This document shows, piece by piece, positions 56,118 through 63,935 of a stretch of 64,000 bases of DNA; the first letter of the stretch is position 1, and every line of letters begins with the position of its first letter. Under the pieces are notes generated by a model, which saw nothing but the letters and a program-made list of their open reading frames with translations, searched no databases and had not been told where the DNA came from. Location: positions 2,621 to 66,620 of the forward strand of contig JAKADA010000008.1 of the NCBI GenBank assembly GCA_021820975.1. The letters run 5' to 3'. The DNA is from Bacillota bacterium (GTDB lineage: Bacteria > Bacillota > Bacilli > Alicyclobacillales > SLC66). The translations under genes and the position numbers were made by a program.

Positions 56118-56211
56118 TGTGATCCTCCCATGTGTTCAGGTTCAGTCCATAGCATATCCAATACAACGAATTTAATGCAAAATATTCCCTATCAAAAAAA
56201 CGGTATAAAAC

Positions 56212-56302: not shown

Positions 56303-56377
56303 GGGGAATTAGCTCAGCGGTAGAGCACTGCGCTGGCAGCGCAGGGGTCAGGGGTTCAAATCCCCTATTCTCCACCA
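56303..56377 (+). tRNA. tRNA-Ala (anticodon GGC), CCA encoded
   Basis: Cloverleaf read by hand: acceptor GGGGAAT/ATTCTCC with the G3:U70 alanine identity pair, anticodon loop CTGGCAG, T-arm AGGGG TTCAAAT CCCCT, 3' ACCA. Confidence 0.93.
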
Positions 56378-57887: not shown

Positions 57888-58195
57888 GTGAAAATAACCT
57901 CATACAAGGGTGTATCATCAAGGACAAGCAGAGGTGTCCTATCAAAAGCCAGGTATCTAATAGACAACGATCTTTTTGTAGTAAAGGCTAACTCCACTGG
58001 TAAGTTTAAATCCTTATGGCGAGTGGCGTATGAACCGTATTCCGAGGTAATGGCGTCAAGAATAGCGAATGTAGGTTGGATAGATCACGTACACTACACA
58101 TTAGAGGACGCAAAGTTTTTCCTGATATACAGGTTGGTGGAGTCAAGCATGTATCTGTGTGTAAAAACTATTTACTAATGGGTACAGTAGTGTAA
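57888..58195 (+). pseudogene. Frameshifted/truncated gene remnant (possible HipA-like kinase N-terminal fragment, tentative)
   Basis: The 96-aa ORF changes into a more protein-like frame (...FFPDIQVGGVKHVSVCKNYLLMGTVV*) at the T5 run 58116-58120. The combined length of about 103 aa is still short. Confidence 0.4.
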
Positions 58196-58304
58196 CACTA
58201 AGGCGTTTTGCTTTATCGAATGGGGTAAGGAACTCAGTGAGTTGGGCTTATGATCACTAAATACACTTTATTTCTTAGTCGATAGAAACACGAGATATTA
58301 TTTT

Positions 58305-58328
58305 AAAAAAGAGGAGGTTAGTCCTCTT
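58305..58328 (-). terminator. Terminator at the rep 3' end
   Basis: AAGAGGA ggttag TCCTCTT with flanking A/T runs; overlaps the rep stop codon. Confidence 0.65.
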
Positions 58329-59283
58329 TTTTCATCAGTTTATTGAATTCAGCTTTAGTTATAGGTGGCAGAAAATTTTGTTCATTAGGCCGAGAAAAAC
58401 ATTGCACTTTATGGATTCTGCGCTTTAAAGCCAGCCAAGTTGACATGTGTTCCTCTCTGATGGAGGGATATTGTTGTTCCAATGGCATGTTACTAATCAT
58501 ATAAACTGTACTATAACATGCTTGTCGGTTATTGTATCGGGCGGGTAGCTGGATAGGATAACCATCAAGATAGTTCAGCATGTCGCTAATTTTGATTTGG
58601 CTTCTAAACTCGTCAAACAACAACACATCTTGGCATTCATATTGATCAAAAGGATGGTCATAATCGGATACGCGGTACACGTTGCGGTAACCGTACTTTT
58701 CCATGACATGCCGCGTTTTGCCGCTTCCAGTTGAACCCCAAATATAGATAACTTCCAGATTACGAAAAGTGGTTTTAAACTGTTCTGCCTTAACCATTAA
58801 TCGGGCGCGATCTATTTTGTCCAAGTGGAGGATGTGTTCAGGTGTTTCCTCGATAATTTCAAAATTACTCATACCTGCTTTTACCATGTCGTACAAATCA
58901 GCCAAGTCGTTTCTGGCACCTTGACGCTCAACGGGCATTTCTCCGTGTTCTTCAAAGGTTCCGGGAATTGCCGTACCATGTTTTTGATCGTTTTCCCATT
59001 TGCCTGACTTCATAATGTAATCCCTGTTTTGTTCGGAAGTGCCCTTGGCGATTTCAAGGTGGGCTTCATTAAAACAGTTTTTAACCGTTGAAAAACGGAC
59101 AGCGGAAGAGAAGACCACATAGATATGTGAATGGTGTGTGGAACCTGATTCGTCGGCTATGCAGTAGTAAAGCGTAGATTTGAGACTGTCTAATGTAGCT
59201 CTGATTTTATCGTGGTCGAAACCGTGATCAAGTGGATTATTAATTGTGATTTGCCATTTTCTTGATTGGGTATCTTTTGCCAT
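58318..59283 (-). CDS. Rolling-circle Rep / relaxase-like protein: HUH endonuclease fused to an SF3 helicase
   Basis: Motif I WQITINNP, motif II HHSHIYVVF, motif III RDYIMKSGK (YxxK). Walker A GSTGSGKT, Walker B VLLFDEF, motif C MISNMP. AGGAGG RBS. Confidence 0.85.
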   Translation of the reverse strand: MAKDTQSRKWQITINNPLDHGFDHDKIRATLDSLKSTLYYCIADESGSTHHSHIYVVFSSAVRFSTVKNCFNEAHLEIAKGTSEQNRDYIMKSGKWENDQKHGTAIPGTFEEHGEMPVERQGARNDLADLYDMVKAGMSNFEIIEETPEHILHLDKIDRARLMVKAEQFKTTFRNLEVIYIWGSTGSGKTRHVMEKYGYRNVYRVSDYDHPFDQYECQDVLLFDEFRSQIKISDMLNYLDGYPIQLPARYNNRQACYSTVYMISNMPLEQQYPSIREEHMSTWLALKRRIHKVQCFSRPNEQNFLPPITKAEFNKLMKKED

Positions 59284-59302: not shown

Positions 59303-59316
59303 ATGCGACATGCGAC
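59303..59316. repeat. Tandem heptamer ATGCGAC x2 (iteron-like), rep-proximal side of the hairpin
   Basis: Read directly at 59303-59309 and 59310-59316. Confidence 0.8.
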
Positions 59317-59319
59317 GTA

Positions 59320-59350
59320 AGTTGGCTAGGTAATACTGGTCTAGCCAACT
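59320..59350 (-). other. Origin-like stem-loop with nonanucleotide CAGTATTAC in the loop
   Basis: AGTTGGCTAG gtaatactggt CTAGCCAACT (10-bp perfect stem). The loop on the rep-sense strand reads ACCAGTATTAC. Confidence 0.75.
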
Positions 59351-59355
59351 GTCTG

Positions 59356-59369
59356 TCGCGCTTCGCGCT
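59356..59369. repeat. Tandem heptamer TCGCGCT x2, distal side of the hairpin
   Basis: Read directly at 59356-59362 and 59363-59369. Confidence 0.8.
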
Positions 59370-59415: not shown

Positions 59416-60129
59416 CTATAGCGGACGTGAAACGGCCTTGCGGATATACGATTCCAGCTTGGCTACATTCTGTACAGCAGGCACCTTTATAGCTGCCAAA
59501 TCGGTACCATTCACAAGCATGTGACCGTAACCAACACCAGAAATAGGTTCCATTTTGTCGCGATCAAAGCCAAACATTAATGCACTTTCTTTACTGATGT
59601 TCCCCATCGCAATCACTAGACCGAAATTGTCACGCGATTTAGCGAAATATTCCGCGTCGGCTCGCTGCTGGCTAATGAGTACATGGACGTTGAATGCCCT
59701 TCCCAACATCAGGAGCGTGGATAATTTCGCACGAGCGGTTTCAGCTTCTTTCTTGTCTACCGTGTTGAGAAAAGAGGCCCATTCATCGAACATCAAGAGC
59801 CTGAAATCACGGCTGGTATCCTCACCTCGTTGACGTGCGAGGAAGGCATGATAGTAGCTGTCCAGCCCATTGGTACAGTCCGAAAATTCGTAGTGGTTTG
59901 GCAAACCTCTTAATCCAATGAAATCATCGGCCTTGAAATCACACAGGACAACACCAGCATTCTTGATGTGTAATCCGATTCGCGCGATGATCAATTTAAC
60001 TAAAAAGGTTTTCCCTGAGCCAGTTGGCCCCACCAAAATAGCGTGGGGCACCTTGGCATAATCCCAGCGGCGGTAATGGTACACGCCGTCAGTTAACAGC
60101 ATAGAATCCAACGCGATATCGATGCCCAT
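59416..60129 (-). CDS. FtsK/SpoIIIE-family ATPase (DNA translocase / coupling-protein-like), soluble domain only
   Basis: Walker A GPTGSGKT, Walker B LLMFDEW, and a QQRAD block. 237 aa with no TM segment. Confidence 0.8.
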   Translation of the reverse strand: MGIDIALDSMLLTDGVYHYRRWDYAKVPHAILVGPTGSGKTFLVKLIIARIGLHIKNAGVVLCDFKADDFIGLRGLPNHYEFSDCTNGLDSYYHAFLARQRGEDTSRDFRLLMFDEWASFLNTVDKKEAETARAKLSTLLMLGRAFNVHVLISQQRADAEYFAKSRDNFGLVIAMGNISKESALMFGFDRDKMEPISGVGYGHMLVNGTDLAAIKVPAVQNVAKLESYIRKAVSRPL

Positions 60130-60134
60130 TTTGA

Positions 60135-60812
60135 TTAAAAATCCTCGTCGGTTGGTTCCGGTGGAGGTGGAGCAGCCTCTTCAAATTGCGAATTGATTAC
60201 AAATCGCAATTTGTCGTTGTTATCGACGATGATCAAGTCAATATACAAGGTAGCTGCATCATCGACGATGCGATCTATCCAAAAAATCGGGATTTGATTA
60301 TCTAATGATGCAAATGGGATGTTTTCGACGTTCCCAGCGCGAAGTTGTTCATTGATGCGCGTTTGAAGAATCTTTTTGATCATCTGCAAATCATTTGGTT
60401 CCCAATGTCCACGTTTAGTTTTAGAAACTTTTACTTTAACGATTTCCATTCCATTACGTATTGCGAGTGATGGCGTTTTGACAATGTCGAGCACATCAAG
60501 CGGACGAACAGTACCAATTCGATTGTGAATTTGGGAAATTACTTTGAATAATTCTTGATAAGCCGATTCGACTAAATTAAAAACGGGCGCTGGTGGCGCT
60601 TTGGGACGTTGGTCGTAGGCTAAATACCCCAAAAAGGTGATGGCTAATACGGGTATTCCCCAATATTTTATCGTCGCCAGTAACACAATGACGGTTATGA
60701 GGCTAAACACCATCACTCCAATCGCGATCTTGTCGTTATCAGTTAGTTCTTTCTTTATAGCACGCTGCACGATTTCGATCGCTCTATGCATCTTTTCGAT
60801 ACTTTTCTTCAT
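60135..60812 (-). CDS. Element-encoded 2-TM membrane protein with a Pro-rich acidic tail
   Basis: 225 aa. TM pair IAIGVMVFSLITVIVLLATI / IPVLAITFLGYLAY. Ends 5 nt before the FtsK-like gene. Confidence 0.6.
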   Translation of the reverse strand: MKKSIEKMHRAIEIVQRAIKKELTDNDKIAIGVMVFSLITVIVLLATIKYWGIPVLAITFLGYLAYDQRPKAPPAPVFNLVESAYQELFKVISQIHNRIGTVRPLDVLDIVKTPSLAIRNGMEIVKVKVSKTKRGHWEPNDLQMIKKILQTRINEQLRAGNVENIPFASLDNQIPIFWIDRIVDDAATLYIDLIIVDNNDKLRFVINSQFEEAAPPPPEPTDEDF

Positions 60813-61219
60813 GATTTATTTCCACCTTTGACTAAAATCGCTTTTTCTGCTTTGCATGAAAGTTGATAGTTTCCCGAGCGATCTCTCCAAAACTTACCCT
60901 CGAATGAGACAAAGGTAATGAGTGTCGATTCGGTGAGTAAATCGACTGTGATAATAGGCGGCAAATCGGGGACTTTGACCAAGATTTTCTCATATCCCGC
61001 CTGCGGACAAACGCAAGTGTACGCGATGCCGCCAATTTTATCTGTTTTCACATTGCTCTCATAAACGTTGTACGGGCTCATGGTCACCAGCAGCACTTCG
61101 TTTGCGTGGGCGATGCTAGGCAAATCAAGTCGAACGTCTTCTGGACGCATGACAATCATCCTTTCTGGTTTTATGGATTGATACAAATTCCTCAAACTCT
61201 CCTTGGTGTTGTTCTGCAT
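60809..61219 (-). CDS. Element-encoded hypothetical protein
   Basis: 136-aa ORF with ATGA overlap to the downstream gene. The true start may be the internal ATG (MRPEDVR...) preceded by AAAGGA. Confidence 0.5.
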   Translation of the reverse strand: MQNNTKESLRNLYQSIKPERMIVMRPEDVRLDLPSIAHANEVLLVTMSPYNVYESNVKTDKIGGIAYTCVCPQAGYEKILVKVPDLPPIITVDLLTESTLITFVSFEGKFWRDRSGNYQLSCKAEKAILVKGGNKS

Positions 61220-61295
61220 ACCTCCTCACGTCAGCGATGATGATGGAGGCGATGTGGCGGGCTTGTTCGTCTGAAATTTGGAATTGCTGGTTCAC
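61125..61295 (-). CDS. Candidate 56-aa protein (below the ORF-track cutoff)
   Basis: GTG 61295 lies 8 nt after GGGAGG. Translation MNQQFQISDEQARHIASIIIADVRRYAEQHQGEFEEFV... Its tail overlaps the next ORF out of frame. Confidence 0.35.
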   Translation of the reverse strand: MNQQFQISDEQARHIASIIIADVRRYAEQHQGEFEEFVSIHKTRKDDCHASRRRST

Positions 61296-61448: not shown

Positions 61449-62099
61449 ATGTTTAACATGACTGATGAAATGTTAGCCTCTACTTTTGCAATTAGAACAA
61501 ACGCAAGGAGGAAACAATTAAAAATCACACGCGAGGAACTTGCCCAATATGCGGAAATCTCAACCAGCACATTGGCCTCATATTTGCGTGAAAAAGAACC
61601 CGTCGTACCCATGTTGCGTGCGGCAATCAGAATGGCAGATAAACTCGGGGTTTCATTAGCTTACCTTTGTGGTTTGGAAAATGAAGGAGACTTTACTCCC
61701 AATGGACTTTCGGCAGAAGTCATTTTAAAGAATCTTTATCGCTCCATTCTGGAAGCTCAGCTAAATTGGCATTTTGAAAATAATAAAGTTGTACTAGAAA
61801 GTGATAATCGGTTCATTATGTCTTTTTTGATACACATCAAGAAAGATTCTTCAAGAGATAAGCTAGATAGCTCGATTTTTAAGCATTTCAAAGACATCAA
61901 ACTCTGGAAAGGTCGAATGGTAACAGATGAAGAATATAAAGAGTTGAGTTACATTGAATATGTGTATGGAGACATTACAGAAGGAGATGATCTTTATCCT
62001 GATGAATTAAATGGACTAATAGAATTGCGGAAACAGCATTGGGAGCAAACAGGAGGGAACCCCACAGAATATTTACATGAAGAGAGGGAGGAAAAGTGA
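61449..62099 (+). CDS. XRE-family HTH regulator (element repressor-like)
   Basis: ARRKQLKITREELAQYAEISTSTLASYLRE helix-turn-helix. Start set at ATG 61449. Confidence 0.75.
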   Translation: MFNMTDEMLASTFAIRTNARRKQLKITREELAQYAEISTSTLASYLREKEPVVPMLRAAIRMADKLGVSLAYLCGLENEGDFTPNGLSAEVILKNLYRSILEAQLNWHFENNKVVLESDNRFIMSFLIHIKKDSSRDKLDSSIFKHFKDIKLWKGRMVTDEEYKELSYIEYVYGDITEGDDLYPDELNGLIELRKQHWEQTGGNPTEYLHEEREEK

Positions 62100-63607
62100 A
62101 CGTCGTCATCTACGCACGCTATAGCAGCCACAGCCAGACCGAACAGTCCATAGAGGGTCAAATTAAGGTCTGCGAGGAATTTGCTTCTAAAAATGAATAC
62201 ACCATCATCAGCAGGTACATTGATCGGGCAATATCTGGAACTACTGACAATCGTCCTGAATTTTTACGCATGATTGAAGATTCCAGCCGAAAACAGTTTC
62301 AGGGTGTGCTGGTCTATCAATTGGATCGATTTGCTAGAAATAGGTATGATTCAGCGATATACAAAGCAAAATTGAAGAAAAATGGTGTAAGGGTATTTTC
62401 GGCAAAGGAAAATATTACCGATGATGCAAGTGGAATTTTGGTTGAGGGATTGCTGGAAAGCATGGCGGAATATTATTCAGTAGAGTTATCGCAAAAAATA
62501 AGGAGAGGGCTCGATTTGAATGCACAAAAACAGTTGGCAACAGGTGGAAATGTTGCGCTTGGGTATAAAGTAGACGAAGATAGGAAATTCGTCATTGATG
62601 AACATGGGGCTGAGATTGTCAGAATGGTTTATGAAATGTACGCTGATGGAAAAACCATCACGGAAATCAATCAACATTTAAATAGCTTGAATTATCAATC
62701 ATCAAAAGGGTCAGCATTTAATAAAAATTCGCTGACCAAAATGCTGAGAAACAAACGGTATATTGGTATTTATACCTATAAAGACATGGAAGTTAAAGAT
62801 GGTATTCCACGCATTATATCGGATGAACTTTTTGAGAAAGTGGCTGAAAGGCTGGGCAAGAATAAGCAGGCTCCTGCTCGAAGCAAAGCGAAAGCACAAT
62901 ATCTACTAACCACTAAGTTGTTTTGTGGACATTGCAACGAAATGATGACAGGGGAGAGTGGGACATCCAAAACAGGGAGAATATATAATTATTACAAATG
63001 TAATCATGCTAGGAAAAAATTGTGTCATAAAAAGACTGTTAAAAAAGATTATATCGAAAATTTGGTGATTGACGAATGTAGGACATTACTAACGGATGAA
63101 AATATTGAAAAAATCACCGTTGAAGTTATGAAGATAAGCGAGCAAGAAAAAGATAAATCTCACATCAAGTTATTGACTAAGCAACTTAAGGAAAATGAGC
63201 GTAAACGAAACAATGTTGTTACTGCCATCGCTGAATGCGATTTAGAAGCAGTTAGAAAAACATTGTATGAACATATTCCTGTTTTGGAAGAAGAGAGAAA
63301 GCATTTGGAGATGCAACTCTCTACGGAACAGCTATCACGAGTCAGTCTGACTGAACCTGAAATCAAGTTTTTTCTTTCTCATTTGAAAAATGGGAATATG
63401 AATGATGAAAAGTATCGTCAAACTCTAGTCAACGTATTTATCAATTCAATATATCTTTACGATGACAAAATGACACTGATTTTCAACTCCAGTAATTATC
63501 CTGCAAATATTGAAGTGGATTTGCTTGGTGAGGTTGAAGCTAATAATAAGGATTACGAGAGTTCGTTTTTAGTATCGAACGCTCCACCAAAAAACCCGCG
63601 TAAATAG
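62096..63607 (+). CDS. Large serine recombinase
   Basis: Resolvase catalytic N-terminus VVIYARYSSHSQ...GQ, recombinase domain, Cys-rich zinc-ribbon CGHCNEMM...YYKCNHARKKLCHKK, and a coiled-coil. GTGA overlap with the XRE stop. Confidence 0.9.
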   Translation: MNVVIYARYSSHSQTEQSIEGQIKVCEEFASKNEYTIISRYIDRAISGTTDNRPEFLRMIEDSSRKQFQGVLVYQLDRFARNRYDSAIYKAKLKKNGVRVFSAKENITDDASGILVEGLLESMAEYYSVELSQKIRRGLDLNAQKQLATGGNVALGYKVDEDRKFVIDEHGAEIVRMVYEMYADGKTITEINQHLNSLNYQSSKGSAFNKNSLTKMLRNKRYIGIYTYKDMEVKDGIPRIISDELFEKVAERLGKNKQAPARSKAKAQYLLTTKLFCGHCNEMMTGESGTSKTGRIYNYYKCNHARKKLCHKKTVKKDYIENLVIDECRTLLTDENIEKITVEVMKISEQEKDKSHIKLLTKQLKENERKRNNVVTAIAECDLEAVRKTLYEHIPVLEEERKHLEMQLSTEQLSRVSLTEPEIKFFLSHLKNGNMNDEKYRQTLVNVFINSIYLYDDKMTLIFNSSNYPANIEVDLLGEVEANNKDYESSFLVSNAPPKNPRK

Positions 63608-63616: not shown

Positions 63617-63634
63617 GCCATTTCAAAGTTGATT

Positions 63635-63705
63635 TTGTAGACAAATTGTAGACAAGCGATTTTTCGATGCCCAATCTTCGTGTTGTCTGTAGACAAAATG
63701 TCTAC
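63635..63705. repeat. Cluster of TGTAGACAA motifs including the palindrome GTAGACA-aaa-TGTCTAC
   Basis: TTGTAGACAA at 63635-63644 and 63647-63656. TTGTCTGTAGACAAAATGTCTAC at 63683-63705. Confidence 0.8.
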
Positions 63706-63902
63706 GGGAGTTTGGAGTTTTGGGTAAAGGACTGTGTTGGCAGAGTGGAAGGGTGATCACCTTACGCGAAGGTGCTCAAGCCACGCACTCCATACATGTG
63801 GAGTGTGTAGTGTCAATACACCGTGTTGGCAAATAGTTGGGACACCTAAACCAGATTTCTATGATTGAAGGATCGGTCGTTATTTTACGCTTACCTGTCT
63901 AA

Positions 63903-63935
63903 AGCCTAGGCGGCTTATTGCCTGGGCTTTTTTTG
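63903..63935 (+). terminator. Rho-independent terminator closing a noncoding stretch
   Basis: AGCCTAGGC ggcttatt GCCTGGGCT followed by T7. Confidence 0.7.

What the first reader, a model, noticed from the sequence alone, without database searches (positions are those of the whole stretch)
58318..59283. Rep with all three HUH motifs fused to an SF3 helicase, the domain architecture of eukaryotic ssDNA-virus Reps
The 321-aa protein shows motif I (WQITINNP, compare FTLNN), motif II (HHSHIYVVF) and motif III (RDYIMKSGK, YxxK). These are followed by Walker A (GSTGSGKT), Walker B (VLLFDEF) and motif C (MISNMP). It is established that CRESS-DNA virus Reps share this HUH-SF3 architecture and are thought to derive from bacterial plasmid Reps. 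Similar proteins have also been proposed as non-canonical relaxases of streptococcal integrative mobilizable elements. Here it sits with a cognate-looking ori, so it could act as replication initiator, relaxase, or both.
Basis: partly seen in the sequence, partly recalled or inferred. Interest (0 to 1): 0.65.

Follow-up and report, generated by a model that had tools for sequence, protein, structure and literature searches.

The report
Circovirus-like Rep in bacterial mobile element
The gene really encodes a nicking-enzyme-plus-helicase replication protein of the kind used by circoviruses, next to a circovirus-style origin, but it sits in a small integrated bacterial mobile element of a type described in 2017-2019, so it is a clean new example and not a new kind of thing.

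Summary
It passes the Pfam gathering thresholds for Viral_Rep and RNA_helicase. It aligns over its full length with porcine circovirus 2 Rep (E=6e-11), and its model matches solved circovirus and nanovirus nuclease and ATPase domains.

The protein is 50-55% identical to published pCRESS2 Reps (Kazlauskas 2019). That compares with 32-34% to pCRESS3 and 26% to pCRESS1.

It is the last gene of a roughly 5.6-6 kb integrated element: large serine recombinase and HTH repressor, then, divergently, p56, p136, a split FtsK/TcpA-like ATPase, the ori and Rep. Between the ATPase gene and rep lies a perfect 10-bp hairpin with CAGTATTAC in its loop, followed by two GTCGCAT iterons.

The same hairpin-AGTATTAC-iteron layout occurs upstream of rep in 61 of 80 related loci. 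These carry 43 different, fully compensated stems, against 0.3% expected by chance. It also occurs in plasmid p4M and in inoviruses carrying this Rep.

Most likely Rep nicks the loop and drives rolling-circle replication of the excised element, and probably also acts as its transfer relaxase. It is a new member of a known kind. The conserved origin is the part I could not find documented.

The parts
58318..59283 (-). rep: 321-aa HUH nuclease (about residues 1-100), linker/oligomerisation region (about 120-170) and SF3 helicase (about 175-295); pCRESS2 family
59320..59350 (-). Origin hairpin: 5' arm AGTTGGCTAG (59350-59341), 11-nt loop ACCAGTATTAC (59340-59330), 3' arm CTAGCCAACT (59329-59320)
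   Evidence: The DNA fold of the region has z=-3.4. A homologous hairpin is present in 61 of 80 related loci, with compensatory stem changes.
59330..59338 (-). Nonanucleotide CAGTATTAC. The predicted nick site is AGTATT|AC, between 59332 and 59331; this is inferred from circoviruses.
   Evidence: Across related loci the nonamer is TAGTATTAC 42 times, CAGTATTAC 9 times and AAGTATTAC 8 times. The nick position is an inference from knowledge of circovirus and nanovirus origins.
59303..59316 (-). Two tandem iterons, GTCGCAT GTCGCAT, starting 3 nt after the hairpin; presumed Rep-binding sites. They overlap a weak promoter-like match for rep.
   Evidence: read directly; tandem 6-7-nt repeats at the same position in most loci, with locus-specific sequence; promoter-like TAGCCA-17-CATAAT at 59328-59300, not above shuffle expectation.
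59355..59369 (-). Upstream repeats AGCGCGA AGCGCGA(C). The GCGAC core is the inverted complement of the iteron core GTCGC.
   Evidence: pairs with the iterons in the predicted single-strand fold
58305..58327 (-). Terminator-like hairpin AGAGGA-CTAACC-TCCTCT followed by TTTTTT, overlapping the rep stop codon; marks the end of the operon
   Evidence: read directly. It was not listed by the consensus scan.
59416..60129 (-). 237-aa FtsK/HerA-type P-loop ATPase with no membrane segment: the ATPase half of a split TcpA-like coupling or translocase protein
   Evidence: FtsK_SpoIIIE 22.4 bits, just under the cut-off of 24; DUF87/HerA 23.4 bits. PHROG FtsK/SpoIIIE-like, 2e-16; fused to the p225 homolog in L009 and L026.
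60135..60812 (-). 225-aa protein with two N-terminal membrane helices: the membrane half of the split TcpA-like protein
   Evidence: In L009 and L026 a single 470-475-aa ORF carries 2 TM segments and a Walker A at residue 265.
60809..61186 (-). 125-aa (136 aa from the upstream ATG) conserved protein of unknown fold. It sits where pCRESS2 elements and ICEBs1/Tn916 carry a small ssDNA-binding or HelP-like protein.
   Evidence: conserved in 18-19 loci; no family or structure assignment obtained.
61125..61295 (-). 56-aa first gene of the leftward operon; possible small regulator or recombination directionality factor (inference only)
   Evidence: a homolog only in L004
61377..62099 (+). HTH_3 (Xre/cI-type) regulator, 240 aa as called (273 aa from the TTG at 61278), transcribed divergently from the rep operon
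62096..63607 (+). Large serine recombinase (Resolvase + Recombinase + Zn_ribbon_recom), 503 aa: the integration/excision enzyme
   Evidence: the same SerRec-HTH-...-Rep synteny in L004, L005, L009 and L012.

Best explanation
The ORF encodes a pCRESS2-family replication initiator. It has an N-terminal HUH nuclease (metal ligands H51 and H53, nucleophile Y89) fused to an SF3 helicase (Walker A K189, Walker B D224/E225, sensor N265). It is the last gene of a small integrated mobile element in a Bacillota genome, spanning roughly 58.2-63.9 kb of the window. The element has a large serine recombinase and an Xre-type repressor on one strand. On the other strand it has an operon of p56, p136, a split TcpA-like FtsK ATPase, the ori and rep.

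Proposed mechanism:
1. The serine recombinase excises the element as a circle (inferred).
2. Rep binds the GTCGCAT iterons next to the hairpin at 59350-59320 (inferred from the conserved layout).
3. Rep extrudes or melts the hairpin and cuts the loop at CAGTATT|AC with Y89, staying covalently attached to the 5' end (inferred from circovirus and nanovirus Reps).
4. The SF3 domain assembles on the DNA and unwinds it, so no host PcrA-type helicase needs to be recruited (inferred).
5. A host polymerase extends the 3'-OH, giving rolling-circle replication of the excised form.
6. Because the origin lies exactly between the FtsK-like gene and rep, as oriT does in ICEBs1 and Tn916, the same nick probably also serves as oriT. 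The FtsK-like ATPase would then deliver the Rep-bound single strand to a helper conjugation pore. This is the Coluzzi/Guedon proposal for Rel_PF02407 elements and has not been shown for any of them.

Shown here: the identity and fold of both domains, the integrity of the catalytic residues, the gene neighbourhood, and the existence and conservation of the origin. Not shown: any biochemical activity, excision or transfer.
For: Domain identity: Pfam Viral_Rep and RNA_helicase both score above their gathering cut-offs. PCV2 Rep matches at E=6e-11 over the full length. The AF2 model has pLDDT 79.9. Foldseek finds Vientovirus Rep at E=6e-13, and circovirus/nanovirus nuclease and PCV2 ATPase domains at TM 0.74-0.81. 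Catalytic residues are invariant across 26 homologs.

Family placement: 53.5% and 50.2% identity to pCRESS2 WP_009246639 and WP_024346025, 32-34% to pCRESS3 and 26% to pCRESS1. There is 55% identity to the Rep of RosInu-E1, a listed pCRESS2 element (L052).

Origin: a perfect 10-bp stem with an 11-nt loop ending in CAGTATTAC, 47 nt upstream of the rep ATG. An equivalent hairpin whose loop ends in AGTATTAC was scored in 61 of the 80 related loci, from 66 initial detections. These have 43 distinct 7-bp closing stems, all four Watson-Crick pair types at stem positions 3-7, and 0.29% expected from shuffled flanks. Tandem iterons sit 0-5 nt after the stem in most loci, and their sequence changes from locus to locus. 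The same layout is found in the autonomous plasmid p4M, in inovirus genomes and in 1.8-kb minimal replicon units. This shows that the Rep-ori pair works as a replication module.

Context: the synteny SerRec-HTH-p56-p136-p225-FtsK-Rep is shared with L004, L005, L009 and L012 while the flanks differ. The membrane and ATPase halves are fused into one TcpA-like ORF in L009 and L026. No Zot, RstB or coat-like genes are present.

Literature: pCRESS1-3 elements carry FtsK-like ATPases and SSB-like proteins (PMC6668415, Supplementary Note 1). PF02407 proteins next to TcpA were proposed as relaxases (PMC5357655). MobT relaxases of ICEBs1 and Tn916 serve both transfer and replication (PMC5704250).
Against: No experiment exists for any member of this family, and the relaxase role is a proposal based on gene association only. 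The FtsK-like ATPase is short, split from its membrane part, and scores just below the Pfam FtsK_SpoIIIE cut-off (22.4 vs 24 bits). Only 28 of 79 related genome loci show a detectable homolog of it, and 24 instead sit in inovirus prophages, so the Rep-ori module clearly works without it. No conjugation machinery is visible in the 64-kb window. The element's ends were not found: there are no direct or inverted repeats between the two boundary regions, and no empty site was available. Integration by the serine recombinase is therefore inferred from synteny alone. The promoter-like match over the iterons is no better than chance.
Confidence: 0.75

Rival explanations
1. Replication only. Under this reading the element is an 'integrated plasmid' in the sense of Kazlauskas et al. 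Rep and the ori only replicate the excised circle. The FtsK-like ATPase segregates or translocates double-stranded DNA, as TraB does in actinomycete integrative elements (AICEs such as pSAM2, which combine an RCR Rep, an FtsK-like Tra protein and an integrase). Rep never acts as a relaxase.
For: The Rep-ori module alone sustains plasmid p4M, 1.8-kb replicon units and inovirus genomes. p4M carries the same FtsK-ori-Rep order and is typed non-mobilizable. Kazlauskas et al. annotate the ATPase as a DNA segregation ATPase. The comparison with AICE gene content is from my own knowledge.
Against: TraB-type double-strand transfer is known only from mycelial actinomycetes (own knowledge). In Bacillota the FtsK-like TcpA proteins placed next to RCR-type nickases (ICEBs1 ConQ/NicK, Tn916 Orf21/Orf20) act in single-strand conjugation (PMC5357655, PMC5704250). 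The origin sits exactly where oriT sits in those elements (own knowledge of Lee and Grossman 2007).
Confidence: 0.17
2. The locus is a cryptic or degraded filamentous prophage (inovirus), and Rep makes single-stranded genomes for packaging.
For: Rep homologs at 47-54% identity, with the same hairpin, sit in GenBank inovirus genomes, in 24 of 79 genome loci alongside Zot and RstB-like genes, and in most of the 43 IMG/VR contigs. Tisza et al. reported inovirus genomes with CRESS-like Reps (PMC7000223).
Against: The window has no Zot, RstB-like or pIII-like homolog. The FtsK-like ATPase shows no Zot match. The only small ORFs with membrane segments are antisense to conserved genes. All of the closest Rep relatives (61-76% identity, L003-L013) with a detectable neighbour show the FtsK/p136 context, not the inovirus one.
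Confidence: 0.03
3. The element is an inactive relic. The genes are intact by chance or only recently immobilised, and the element no longer excises or replicates.
For: The ends were not identified. The exact Rep sequence is seen on only 2 contigs.
Against: All seven ORFs are intact and all Rep catalytic residues are present. The hairpin is a perfect 10-bp stem and both iterons are identical. The whole module is conserved in synteny at 35-76% protein identity in other genera, which implies purifying selection.
Confidence: 0.05

Closest known systems
pCRESS2 integrated plasmids (Kazlauskas, Varsani, Koonin and Krupovic 2019, PMC6668415), e.g. RosInu-E1 of Roseburia inulinivorans
   Same: The Rep has the same HUH-SF3 architecture and 50-55% identity. 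Motif III is YxxK, not YLxH. The element is integrated in a Bacillota chromosome, has an FtsK-like ATPase upstream of rep plus a small conserved protein and an HTH regulator, and has no capsid genes.
   Different: The integrase here is a large serine recombinase, whereas the published elements mostly carry tyrosine recombinases at tRNA genes. The FtsK-like protein is split into a membrane gene and an ATPase gene. The paper and its supplements, as far as I could search them, do not describe the origin.
IME class with a Rel_PF02407 putative relaxase and a TcpA coupling protein (Coluzzi et al. 2017, PMC5357655), e.g. IME_SiniSF1_ebfC of Streptococcus iniae
   Same: A PF02407 protein lies immediately downstream of an FtsK-like gene in a compact integrated module that includes an integrase.
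   Different: The streptococcal examples (2 elements) use tyrosine integrases. They are listed as PF02407 only. Kazlauskas files the streptococcal viral-like Reps he sampled under pCRESS1, which is 26% identical to this Rep. Whether Coluzzi's two PF02407 relaxases belong to pCRESS1 was not checked here.
Circovirus and nanovirus Rep with its origin (PCV2: PDB 7lar, 6wdz, 8xms)
   Same: Domain order, catalytic motifs and fold are shared. The origin is also shared: a stem-loop with (T/A/C)AGTATTAC at the 3' end of the loop, tandem short iterons immediately 3' of the stem, and the whole unit just upstream of rep on the rep-sense strand.
   Different: Sequence identity is only about 20-25%. Motif II is H-S-H here, against H-L-Q in PCV2. 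The host is a bacterium. The replicon is an integrating double-stranded element with no capsid gene.
ICEBs1 / Tn916 transfer-replication module (HelP, ConQ, oriT, NicK; Orf22/23, Orf21, oriT, Orf20)
   Same: The gene order is the same: small protein(s), an FtsK-like coupling ATPase, the nick site, then an RCR-type nickase, all divergent from a repressor-integrase module. In those ICEs the nickase serves both transfer and replication (PMC5704250).
   Different: Their nickase is of the Rep_trans (MobT) family and has no helicase, so it depends on host PcrA plus HelP. Here the helicase is built into the protein. Those elements also encode their own mating pore; this one does not.
Plasmid p4M of Bifidobacterium pseudocatenulatum (NC_003527; pCRESS3)
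   Same: It has the FtsK-ori-RepA order, and a hairpin GTGGGCGG/CATAGTGTTAC/CCGCCCAC followed by GTACCA twice.
   Different: It is extrachromosomal and has no recombinase. Rep identity is 31-34%. Its nonamer differs at one position (TAGTGTTAC).
Inoviruses with CRESS-like Rep (Tisza et al. 2020, ctbe30 and ctbc27; GenBank 'bajarodino viruses')
   Same: The Rep is 47-54% identical and has the same AGTATTAC hairpin with a TGTCGCA-type iteron.
   Different: They carry Zot, RstB-like, coat and adsorption genes in place of the FtsK-like, p136 and serine recombinase genes.

Membership tests
CRESS-type Rep (HUH nuclease + SF3 helicase; Pfam PF02407 + PF00910) | Nuclease domain scores above the Pfam Viral_Rep gathering threshold | tested here: met
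   45.8 bits against a cut-off of 26, covering residues 8-92
CRESS-type Rep (HUH nuclease + SF3 helicase; Pfam PF02407 + PF00910) | Motifs I (uuTuxN), II (HUH/HUQ) and III (YxxK) present in order and conserved | tested here: met
   The motifs are WQITINNP, H51-S-H53 and Y89-I-M-K92. T13, N15, H51, H53, Y89 and K92 are invariant in 26 homologs, and they align to the PCV2 motifs.
CRESS-type Rep (HUH nuclease + SF3 helicase; Pfam PF02407 + PF00910) | SF3 helicase with Walker A, Walker B and motif C at SF3 spacing | tested here: met
   RNA_helicase scores 23.6 bits against a cut-off of 21.5. GSTGSGKT, VLLFDEF and ISN align to the PCV2 equivalents GPPGCGKS, VVVIDDF and ITSN. The arginine finger (R288/R289, invariant) is assigned by inference only.
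CRESS-type Rep (HUH nuclease + SF3 helicase; Pfam PF02407 + PF00910) | HUH nuclease fold and AAA+ SF3 fold | tested here: met
   AF2 model pLDDT 79.9. Foldseek TM is 0.76-0.81 to PCV2, duck circovirus and FBNYV nuclease domains, and 0.74-0.78 to the PCV2 ATPase domain.
CRESS-type Rep (HUH nuclease + SF3 helicase; Pfam PF02407 + PF00910) | Site-specific nicking and joining at a nonanucleotide in a hairpin loop | not testable with these tools
   The cognate site is present and conserved. The activity needs biochemistry.
pCRESS2 (Kazlauskas et al. 2019) | Rep groups with pCRESS2 members and not with other pCRESS groups | tested here: met
   BLASTP identity is 53.5%, 50.2% and 40.8% to three pCRESS2 members, 32-34% to pCRESS3 and 25.5% to pCRESS1. 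It is 55% to the RosInu-E1 Rep. This is pairwise identity only; no tree was built.
pCRESS2 (Kazlauskas et al. 2019) | Motif III lacks the YLxH signature of pCRESS4-8 | tested here: met
   Motif III is YIMK, against the definition in PMC6668415 section 8.
pCRESS2 (Kazlauskas et al. 2019) | Element carries an FtsK-like ATPase and an SSB-like protein and no viral structural genes | tested here: inconclusive
   The FtsK-like ATPase is present and no structural genes are found. The 125-aa protein in the SSB position could not be assigned to any family or fold.
IME with Rel_PF02407 relaxase + TcpA (Coluzzi et al. 2017) | PF02407 protein associated with an integrase in an integrated element | tested here: met
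   The serine recombinase lies 2.8 kb away, in synteny conserved with four other genomes.
IME with Rel_PF02407 relaxase + TcpA (Coluzzi et al. 2017) | TcpA-type coupling protein (PF01580, N-terminal TM segments) encoded just upstream of the relaxase gene | tested here: inconclusive
   The position and domain type fit. PF01580 scores 22.4 bits, below the cut-off of 24, while PHROG FtsK/SpoIIIE-like scores 2e-16. The TM part is a separate gene here but is fused in L009 and L026. CONJscan TcpA profiles were not available.
IME with Rel_PF02407 relaxase + TcpA (Coluzzi et al. 2017) | Defined attL/attR boundaries and integration site | tested here: inconclusive
   No repeats were found between the boundary regions, and alignments of the ends with relatives were uninformative. 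The only hint is a metagenome contig junction at 58252.
IME with Rel_PF02407 relaxase + TcpA (Coluzzi et al. 2017) | Mobilisation in trans by a helper conjugative element | not testable with these tools
   Never shown for this relaxase family, according to PMC5704250.
Inovirus prophage | Zot/pI morphogenesis ATPase, coat proteins and an adsorption protein | tested here: not met
   tblastn with Zot, RstB-like and the 482-aa protein of related inoviruses finds nothing in the window. No plausible small membrane ORFs are present.

The most novel reading that the evidence does not exclude
The complete cis-acting origin of circoviruses and nanoviruses is ancestral to, and universally conserved in, the bacterial p4M-like Rep lineage (pCRESS2/3). 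That origin comprises the stem-loop, the (T/A/C)AGTATTAC nonanucleotide at the 3' edge of the loop, and tandem iterons directly 3' of the stem, all just upstream of rep. In Bacillota this one Rep-ori cassette is swapped between three lifestyles: integrative elements with FtsK-like ATPases, filamentous phages and minimal plasmids. In the first of these, a helicase-bearing Rep would be a self-sufficient relaxase-initiator that needs no PcrA or HelP. If the origin conservation is indeed undocumented, it extends the plasmid-to-CRESS-virus scenario from the protein to the protein-DNA recognition system. It also gives a defined substrate for testing the proposed relaxase function.
Probability: 0.4. 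Interest if true: 0.55.

Novelty: new member of a known kind. Interest (0 to 1): 0.4.

Why it matters
The gene itself adds one more member to a family that already holds thousands of sequences: 3376 hits at E<=1e-3 in the 90%-identity cluster database and 504 clusters at 50% identity with E<=1e-30. Its worth is as a very clean specimen, with intact Rep, a perfect hairpin, identical iterons and a compact seven-gene element.

The comparative result it led to is more useful. The bacterial relatives of circovirus Rep keep the circovirus nick sequence and origin layout. This supports descent of the whole replication module, both enzyme and recognition site, from bacterial elements.

It also gives experimenters the exact oligonucleotide substrate needed to test whether these 'non-canonical relaxases' really nick, replicate and mobilise. 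HUH domains with known short ssDNA targets are additionally used as protein-DNA conjugation tags. A bacterial family with locus-specific iterons and a fixed nick site could be mined for that purpose.

Tried and rejected
1. Element boundaries. I searched for direct and inverted repeats between 58100-58330 and 63600-64300 and found none at >=17/24 matches. MAFFT alignments of both ends with the closest relatives were uninformative. Exact-protein look-ups of the flanking genes found only the same locus and no empty site. Two MEGAHIT contigs overlap by exactly k=141 at 58252-58392, which may mark a branch at the left end. That metagenome is fragmented everywhere, so I treat this as a hint only.

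2. The 125/136-aa protein. There was no Pfam, NCBIfam, PHROG or PADLOC hit. A profile of 18 homologs found nothing credible among PDB sequences. The word-indexed homolog search returned only the protein itself. The HelP/SSB-like assignment therefore rests on position and on the annotation in Kazlauskas et al.

3. Inovirus prophage reading. I considered this after finding inovirus genomes with the same Rep, and rejected it for this locus.

4. The 96-aa ORF at 57888-58178 as half of a gene split by the insertion. No continuation was found on the other side.

5. Literature. I searched for a prior description of the AGTATTAC origin in bacterial pCRESS elements and found none in the held library. 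Gibbs et al. 2006 on p4M is not in the library and may mention it.

6. Host. I ran no further search on identifying it. The closest Rep relatives are in Alicyclobacillus, Paenibacillus, Brevibacillus and Cohnella, so the host is probably in the Bacilli.
Full report

Yes. The minus strand of 58318-59283 carries a 321-aa ATG-initiated ORF. A GGAGG ribosome-binding site lies 11 nt upstream.

In an alignment with 25 homologs of 52-79% identity, the functionally critical positions are invariant. These are T13/I14/N15/P17 (motif I), H51 and H53 (motif II, an authentic H-x-H), Y89 and K92 (motif III, YxxK), G188/K189/T190 (Walker A), E225 (Walker B), N265 (motif C) and R288/R289.

Pfam places residues 8-92 in Viral_Rep (PF02407) at 45.8 bits against a cut-off of 26. 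It places residues 179-261 in RNA_helicase (PF00910) at 23.6 bits against a cut-off of 21.5.

A plain phmmer search of PDB sequences finds the full-length porcine circovirus 2 Rep (7lar) at E=6.3e-11. The alignment runs from motif I to beyond motif C, with all six motifs in register.

An AlphaFold2 model (mean pLDDT 79.9) matches the Vientovirus Rep over its whole length (E=6e-13). It matches the nuclease domains of PCV2, Muscovy duck circovirus and faba bean necrotic yellows virus with TM 0.76-0.81. It matches the PCV2 ATPase domain with TM 0.74-0.78.

**2. Which family is it?**

The protein has 3376 relatives at E<=1e-3 in the 90%-identity cluster database, many on contigs of hundreds of kb from Clostridia and Bacilli. 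In the exhaustive search it has 504 clusters at 50% identity with E<=1e-30.

Kazlauskas et al. 2019 (PMC6668415) defined nine groups of bacterial 'viral-like' Reps, pCRESS1-9. I reconstructed sequences from their supplementary alignments and compared them with the window protein. Identity is 53.5% and 50.2% to two core pCRESS2 members and 40.8% to a basal one. It is 32-34% to pCRESS3, which includes plasmid p4M, and 25.5% to pCRESS1.

One of my fetched loci, L052 (Roseburia inulinivorans NZ_ACFY01000152), is the published pCRESS2 element RosInu-E1. Its Rep is 55% identical to the window protein. Motif III is YIMK, not the YLxH that marks pCRESS4-8. I therefore file it as pCRESS2. The caveat is that this rests on pairwise identity, not on a tree.

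**3. The surroundings**

Rep is the last gene of a leftward operon. Upstream, in order, are:
- a 237-aa FtsK/HerA-type ATPase (59416-60129);
- a 225-aa protein with two membrane helices (60135-60812);
- a conserved 125-136-aa protein (60809-61186/61219);
- a 56-aa ORF.

Transcribed divergently are an Xre/cI-type HTH regulator and a 503-aa large serine recombinase with all three of its Pfam domains.

The same order, SerRec-HTH-(p56)-p136-p225-FtsK-Rep, is found in L004, L005, L009 and L012. Partial versions occur in about two dozen further loci, while the flanking genes differ. The mobile unit is therefore this seven-gene block of roughly 5.6-6 kb.

In L009 and L026 the 225-aa and 237-aa proteins are one ORF of 470-475 aa, with two N-terminal membrane segments and a Walker A at residue 265. 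That is the architecture of TcpA-type coupling proteins, so the window carries a split version.

This context matches Supplementary Note 1 of Kazlauskas et al., which says pCRESS1-3 elements share FtsK-like ATPases and SSB-like proteins and have no structural genes. It also matches the 'compact' IME module of Coluzzi et al. 2017, with TcpA upstream of a Rel_PF02407 putative relaxase plus an integrase. Two differences are modest. The integrase is a serine recombinase, not a tyrosine recombinase, and the coupling protein is split.

I could not find the element's ends.

**4. The origin**

The 132-bp gap between the ATPase gene and rep holds, on the rep-sense strand, three features:
- a perfect 10-bp stem, AGTTGGCTAG/CTAGCCAACT (59350-59341 and 59329-59320);
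- an 11-nt loop ACCAGTATTAC, which ends in the circovirus/nanovirus nonanucleotide (C)AGTATTAC;
- two identical tandem repeats, GTCGCAT GTCGCAT, starting 3 nt after the stem.

Two AGCGCGA repeats lie just upstream, and their GCGAC core is the inverted iteron core. Folded as single-stranded DNA, the region scores z=-3.4 against shuffles.

To test whether this is more than chance, I fetched 79 genome loci that encode relatives of 49-76% identity. An exact AGTATTAC lies within 40-350 nt upstream of rep, on the rep strand, in most of them. An 8-mer is expected about once per 65 kb.

In one search, 66 of 80 loci showed a hairpin of at least 5 perfect pairs around xxTATTAC. I scored 61 of these in detail. 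Stems are 7-14 bp (mode 10) and loops are 10-12 nt. The nonamer is TAGTATTAC in 42, CAGTATTAC in 9, AAGTATTAC in 8 and TATTATTAC in 2. The 3' arm abuts the final C in almost all of them.

The stems differ between loci. There are 43 distinct 7-bp closing stems, and all four Watson-Crick pair types occur at positions 3-7, so pairing is kept through compensatory changes. Shuffled flanks give a stem of at least 7 bp only 0.29% of the time.

Most loci also have two tandem 6-7-nt repeats 0-5 nt after the stem. The repeat sequence is locus-specific: TGTCGCA, TGTGACA, TGTAACA, TGTAGCA, TGTGTCA, TGAGACA, TGAAACA or GTGTACA. Often a further copy lies 40-50 nt downstream.

This is the layout of circovirus origins: a stem-loop with the nonamer, hexamer iterons immediately 3' of the stem, and the whole unit just upstream of rep. 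That comparison rests on my own knowledge of PCV origins.

Plasmid p4M (pCRESS3) shows the same design with a one-base variant: GTGGGCGG-CATAGTGTTAC-CCGCCCAC followed by GTACCA GTACCA, between its FtsK-domain gene and RepA.

I found no description of this origin in the pCRESS paper or its supplements, in the structural review of pCRESS Reps, in the IME papers, or elsewhere in the searchable library. I cannot exclude that it is noted in papers not held, such as Gibbs et al. 2006.

**5. The Rep-ori cassette appears in three lifestyles**

A protein search of GenBank phage records found six 'bajarodino virus' genomes classified as Inoviridae. They are 5.7-10 kb and come from rodent faeces. Their Reps are 47-54% identical to the window protein.

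They carry Zot, an RstB-like gene, small ORFs and a pIII-sized protein. They have the same hairpin-AGTATTAC-TGTCGCA origin, but no homolog of the window's other genes.

Among the 79 genome loci, 28 show the FtsK-like context and 24 show the Zot/RstB context. Most of the 43 IMG/VR contigs with this Rep are of inovirus size, and many have Zot or RstB.

A 7.4-kb contig, L063, consists of alternating 1.8-kb units, each holding only ori, Rep and two small ORFs.

The cassette is thus a portable rolling-circle replication module. That inoviruses can carry CRESS-like Reps was already reported by Tisza et al. 2020.

The window's element is not an inovirus. It has no Zot, RstB or adsorption-protein homolog and no plausible coat ORF. 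Its closest Rep relatives with a detectable neighbour gene all share the FtsK/p136 context.

**6. Mechanism**

The best-supported reading is as follows. After excision by the serine recombinase, Rep binds the iterons and nicks the loop at AGTATT|AC through Y89. It stays attached to the 5' end and unwinds the DNA with its own SF3 helicase, which drives rolling-circle replication of the circle.

The nick site lies exactly between the FtsK-like gene and the nickase gene, as oriT does in ICEBs1 and Tn916. In those elements an RCR-type nickase serves both replication and transfer (PMC5704250). The same nick therefore probably also starts conjugative mobilisation through a helper's pore.

I put about 0.95 on the identity of the protein, about 0.9 on the origin and about 0.8 on the initiator role. 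I put about 0.5 on the additional relaxase role, which remains a proposal by association for the whole family.

The main rival is a replication-only element whose FtsK-like ATPase acts on double-stranded DNA, as in actinomycete AICEs. The inovirus and relic readings are unlikely.

**7. Verdict**

The finding is accurate and its interpretation is supported. The protein family, its architecture, its integrated FtsK-linked context and the relaxase hypothesis were all published in 2017-2019, so this is a new member of a known kind.

The useful extra is comparative. The circovirus-type origin, both nick sequence and iteron layout, is conserved with covarying stems across the bacterial lineage. Interest is 0.4.

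Noticed in passing
just beyond the window's right end (about 64195-66996 in window numbering; L001 2288-5089, minus strand of that locus): A 933-aa SF1B (RecD2/TraA-like) helicase gives a full-length match to the PADLOC candidate defence protein PDC-S53 (E=0, 1288 bits). It is followed by a 216-aa ORF and a PLDc_2 protein. It lies directly next to the serine recombinase end of the element, so it may be cargo or a neighbouring defence island.
   Followed up: partly
L063 1-7376 (contig CAYUUX010000037.1, binned as Gammaproteobacteria): The contig consists of alternating units of about 1.8 kb. Each unit has a hairpin-TAGTATTAC origin, a 313-aa Rep, a 65-aa Cys-rich ORF and a 140-aa ORF. The two units differ slightly. 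It looks like a heterodimer or concatemer of minimal plasmid-like replicons that use this Rep family.
   Followed up: partly
L015, L016, L020, L021, L023 and other loci (24 of 79 genome loci); L085 and L086 (PQ006124, PQ006138); IMG/VR loci L087-L129: Rep homologs of 46-60% identity with the same AGTATTAC hairpin sit in inovirus genomes and prophages, alongside Zot, RstB-like and pIII-like genes. The Rep-ori cassette is therefore exchanged between filamentous phages and integrative elements encoding FtsK-like ATPases.
   Followed up: partly
window 60135-60812 and 59416-60129; L009 6445-7872; L026 6264-7676: The TcpA-like protein is split into a membrane gene and an ATPase gene in the window and in most relatives. 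It is a single 470-475-aa ORF in two loci.
   Followed up: yes
window 63630-63710 and 63901-63930: Downstream of the serine recombinase stop codon there are several TGTAGACAA repeats and a perfect palindrome, GTAGACA-AAA-TGTCTAC. A 13-bp terminator-like hairpin lies at 63901-63930. These may be operator or attachment-site sequences. Their function is unknown.
   Followed up: no
window 58252-58392 (L002 and L083): Two MEGAHIT contigs from metagenome ERZ27237524 are identical to the window and overlap by exactly k=141 nt, ending at 58252 and 58392. This could mark a graph branch at the element's left end, 66 nt past the rep stop codon. It may equally reflect general fragmentation of that assembly.
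   Followed up: partly
L130 2720-2775 (plasmid p4M, NC_003527): p4M has a hairpin GTGGGCGG / CATAGTGTTAC / CCGCCCAC followed by GTACCA GTACCA, between its FtsK-domain gene and RepA. The origin design therefore extends to pCRESS3 with a one-base change in the nonamer.
   Followed up: yes
L023, L036, L063 (record titles): Three loci with this Bacillota-type Rep are binned as Methanobacteriota, Paludibacteraceae and Gammaproteobacteria MAGs. These are probably binning errors caused by small mobile contigs. A wider host range was not excluded.
   Followed up: no
window 56303-56377 and 56118: A tRNA-Ala(GGC) gene lies 1.9 kb left of rep, and the NCBI contig carrying this locus begins at window position 56118, next to that gene. 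Two ORFs without family matches separate it from rep: 352/424 aa with a Gly-rich C-terminus, and 96 aa. Whether they belong to the element is unknown.
   Followed up: no
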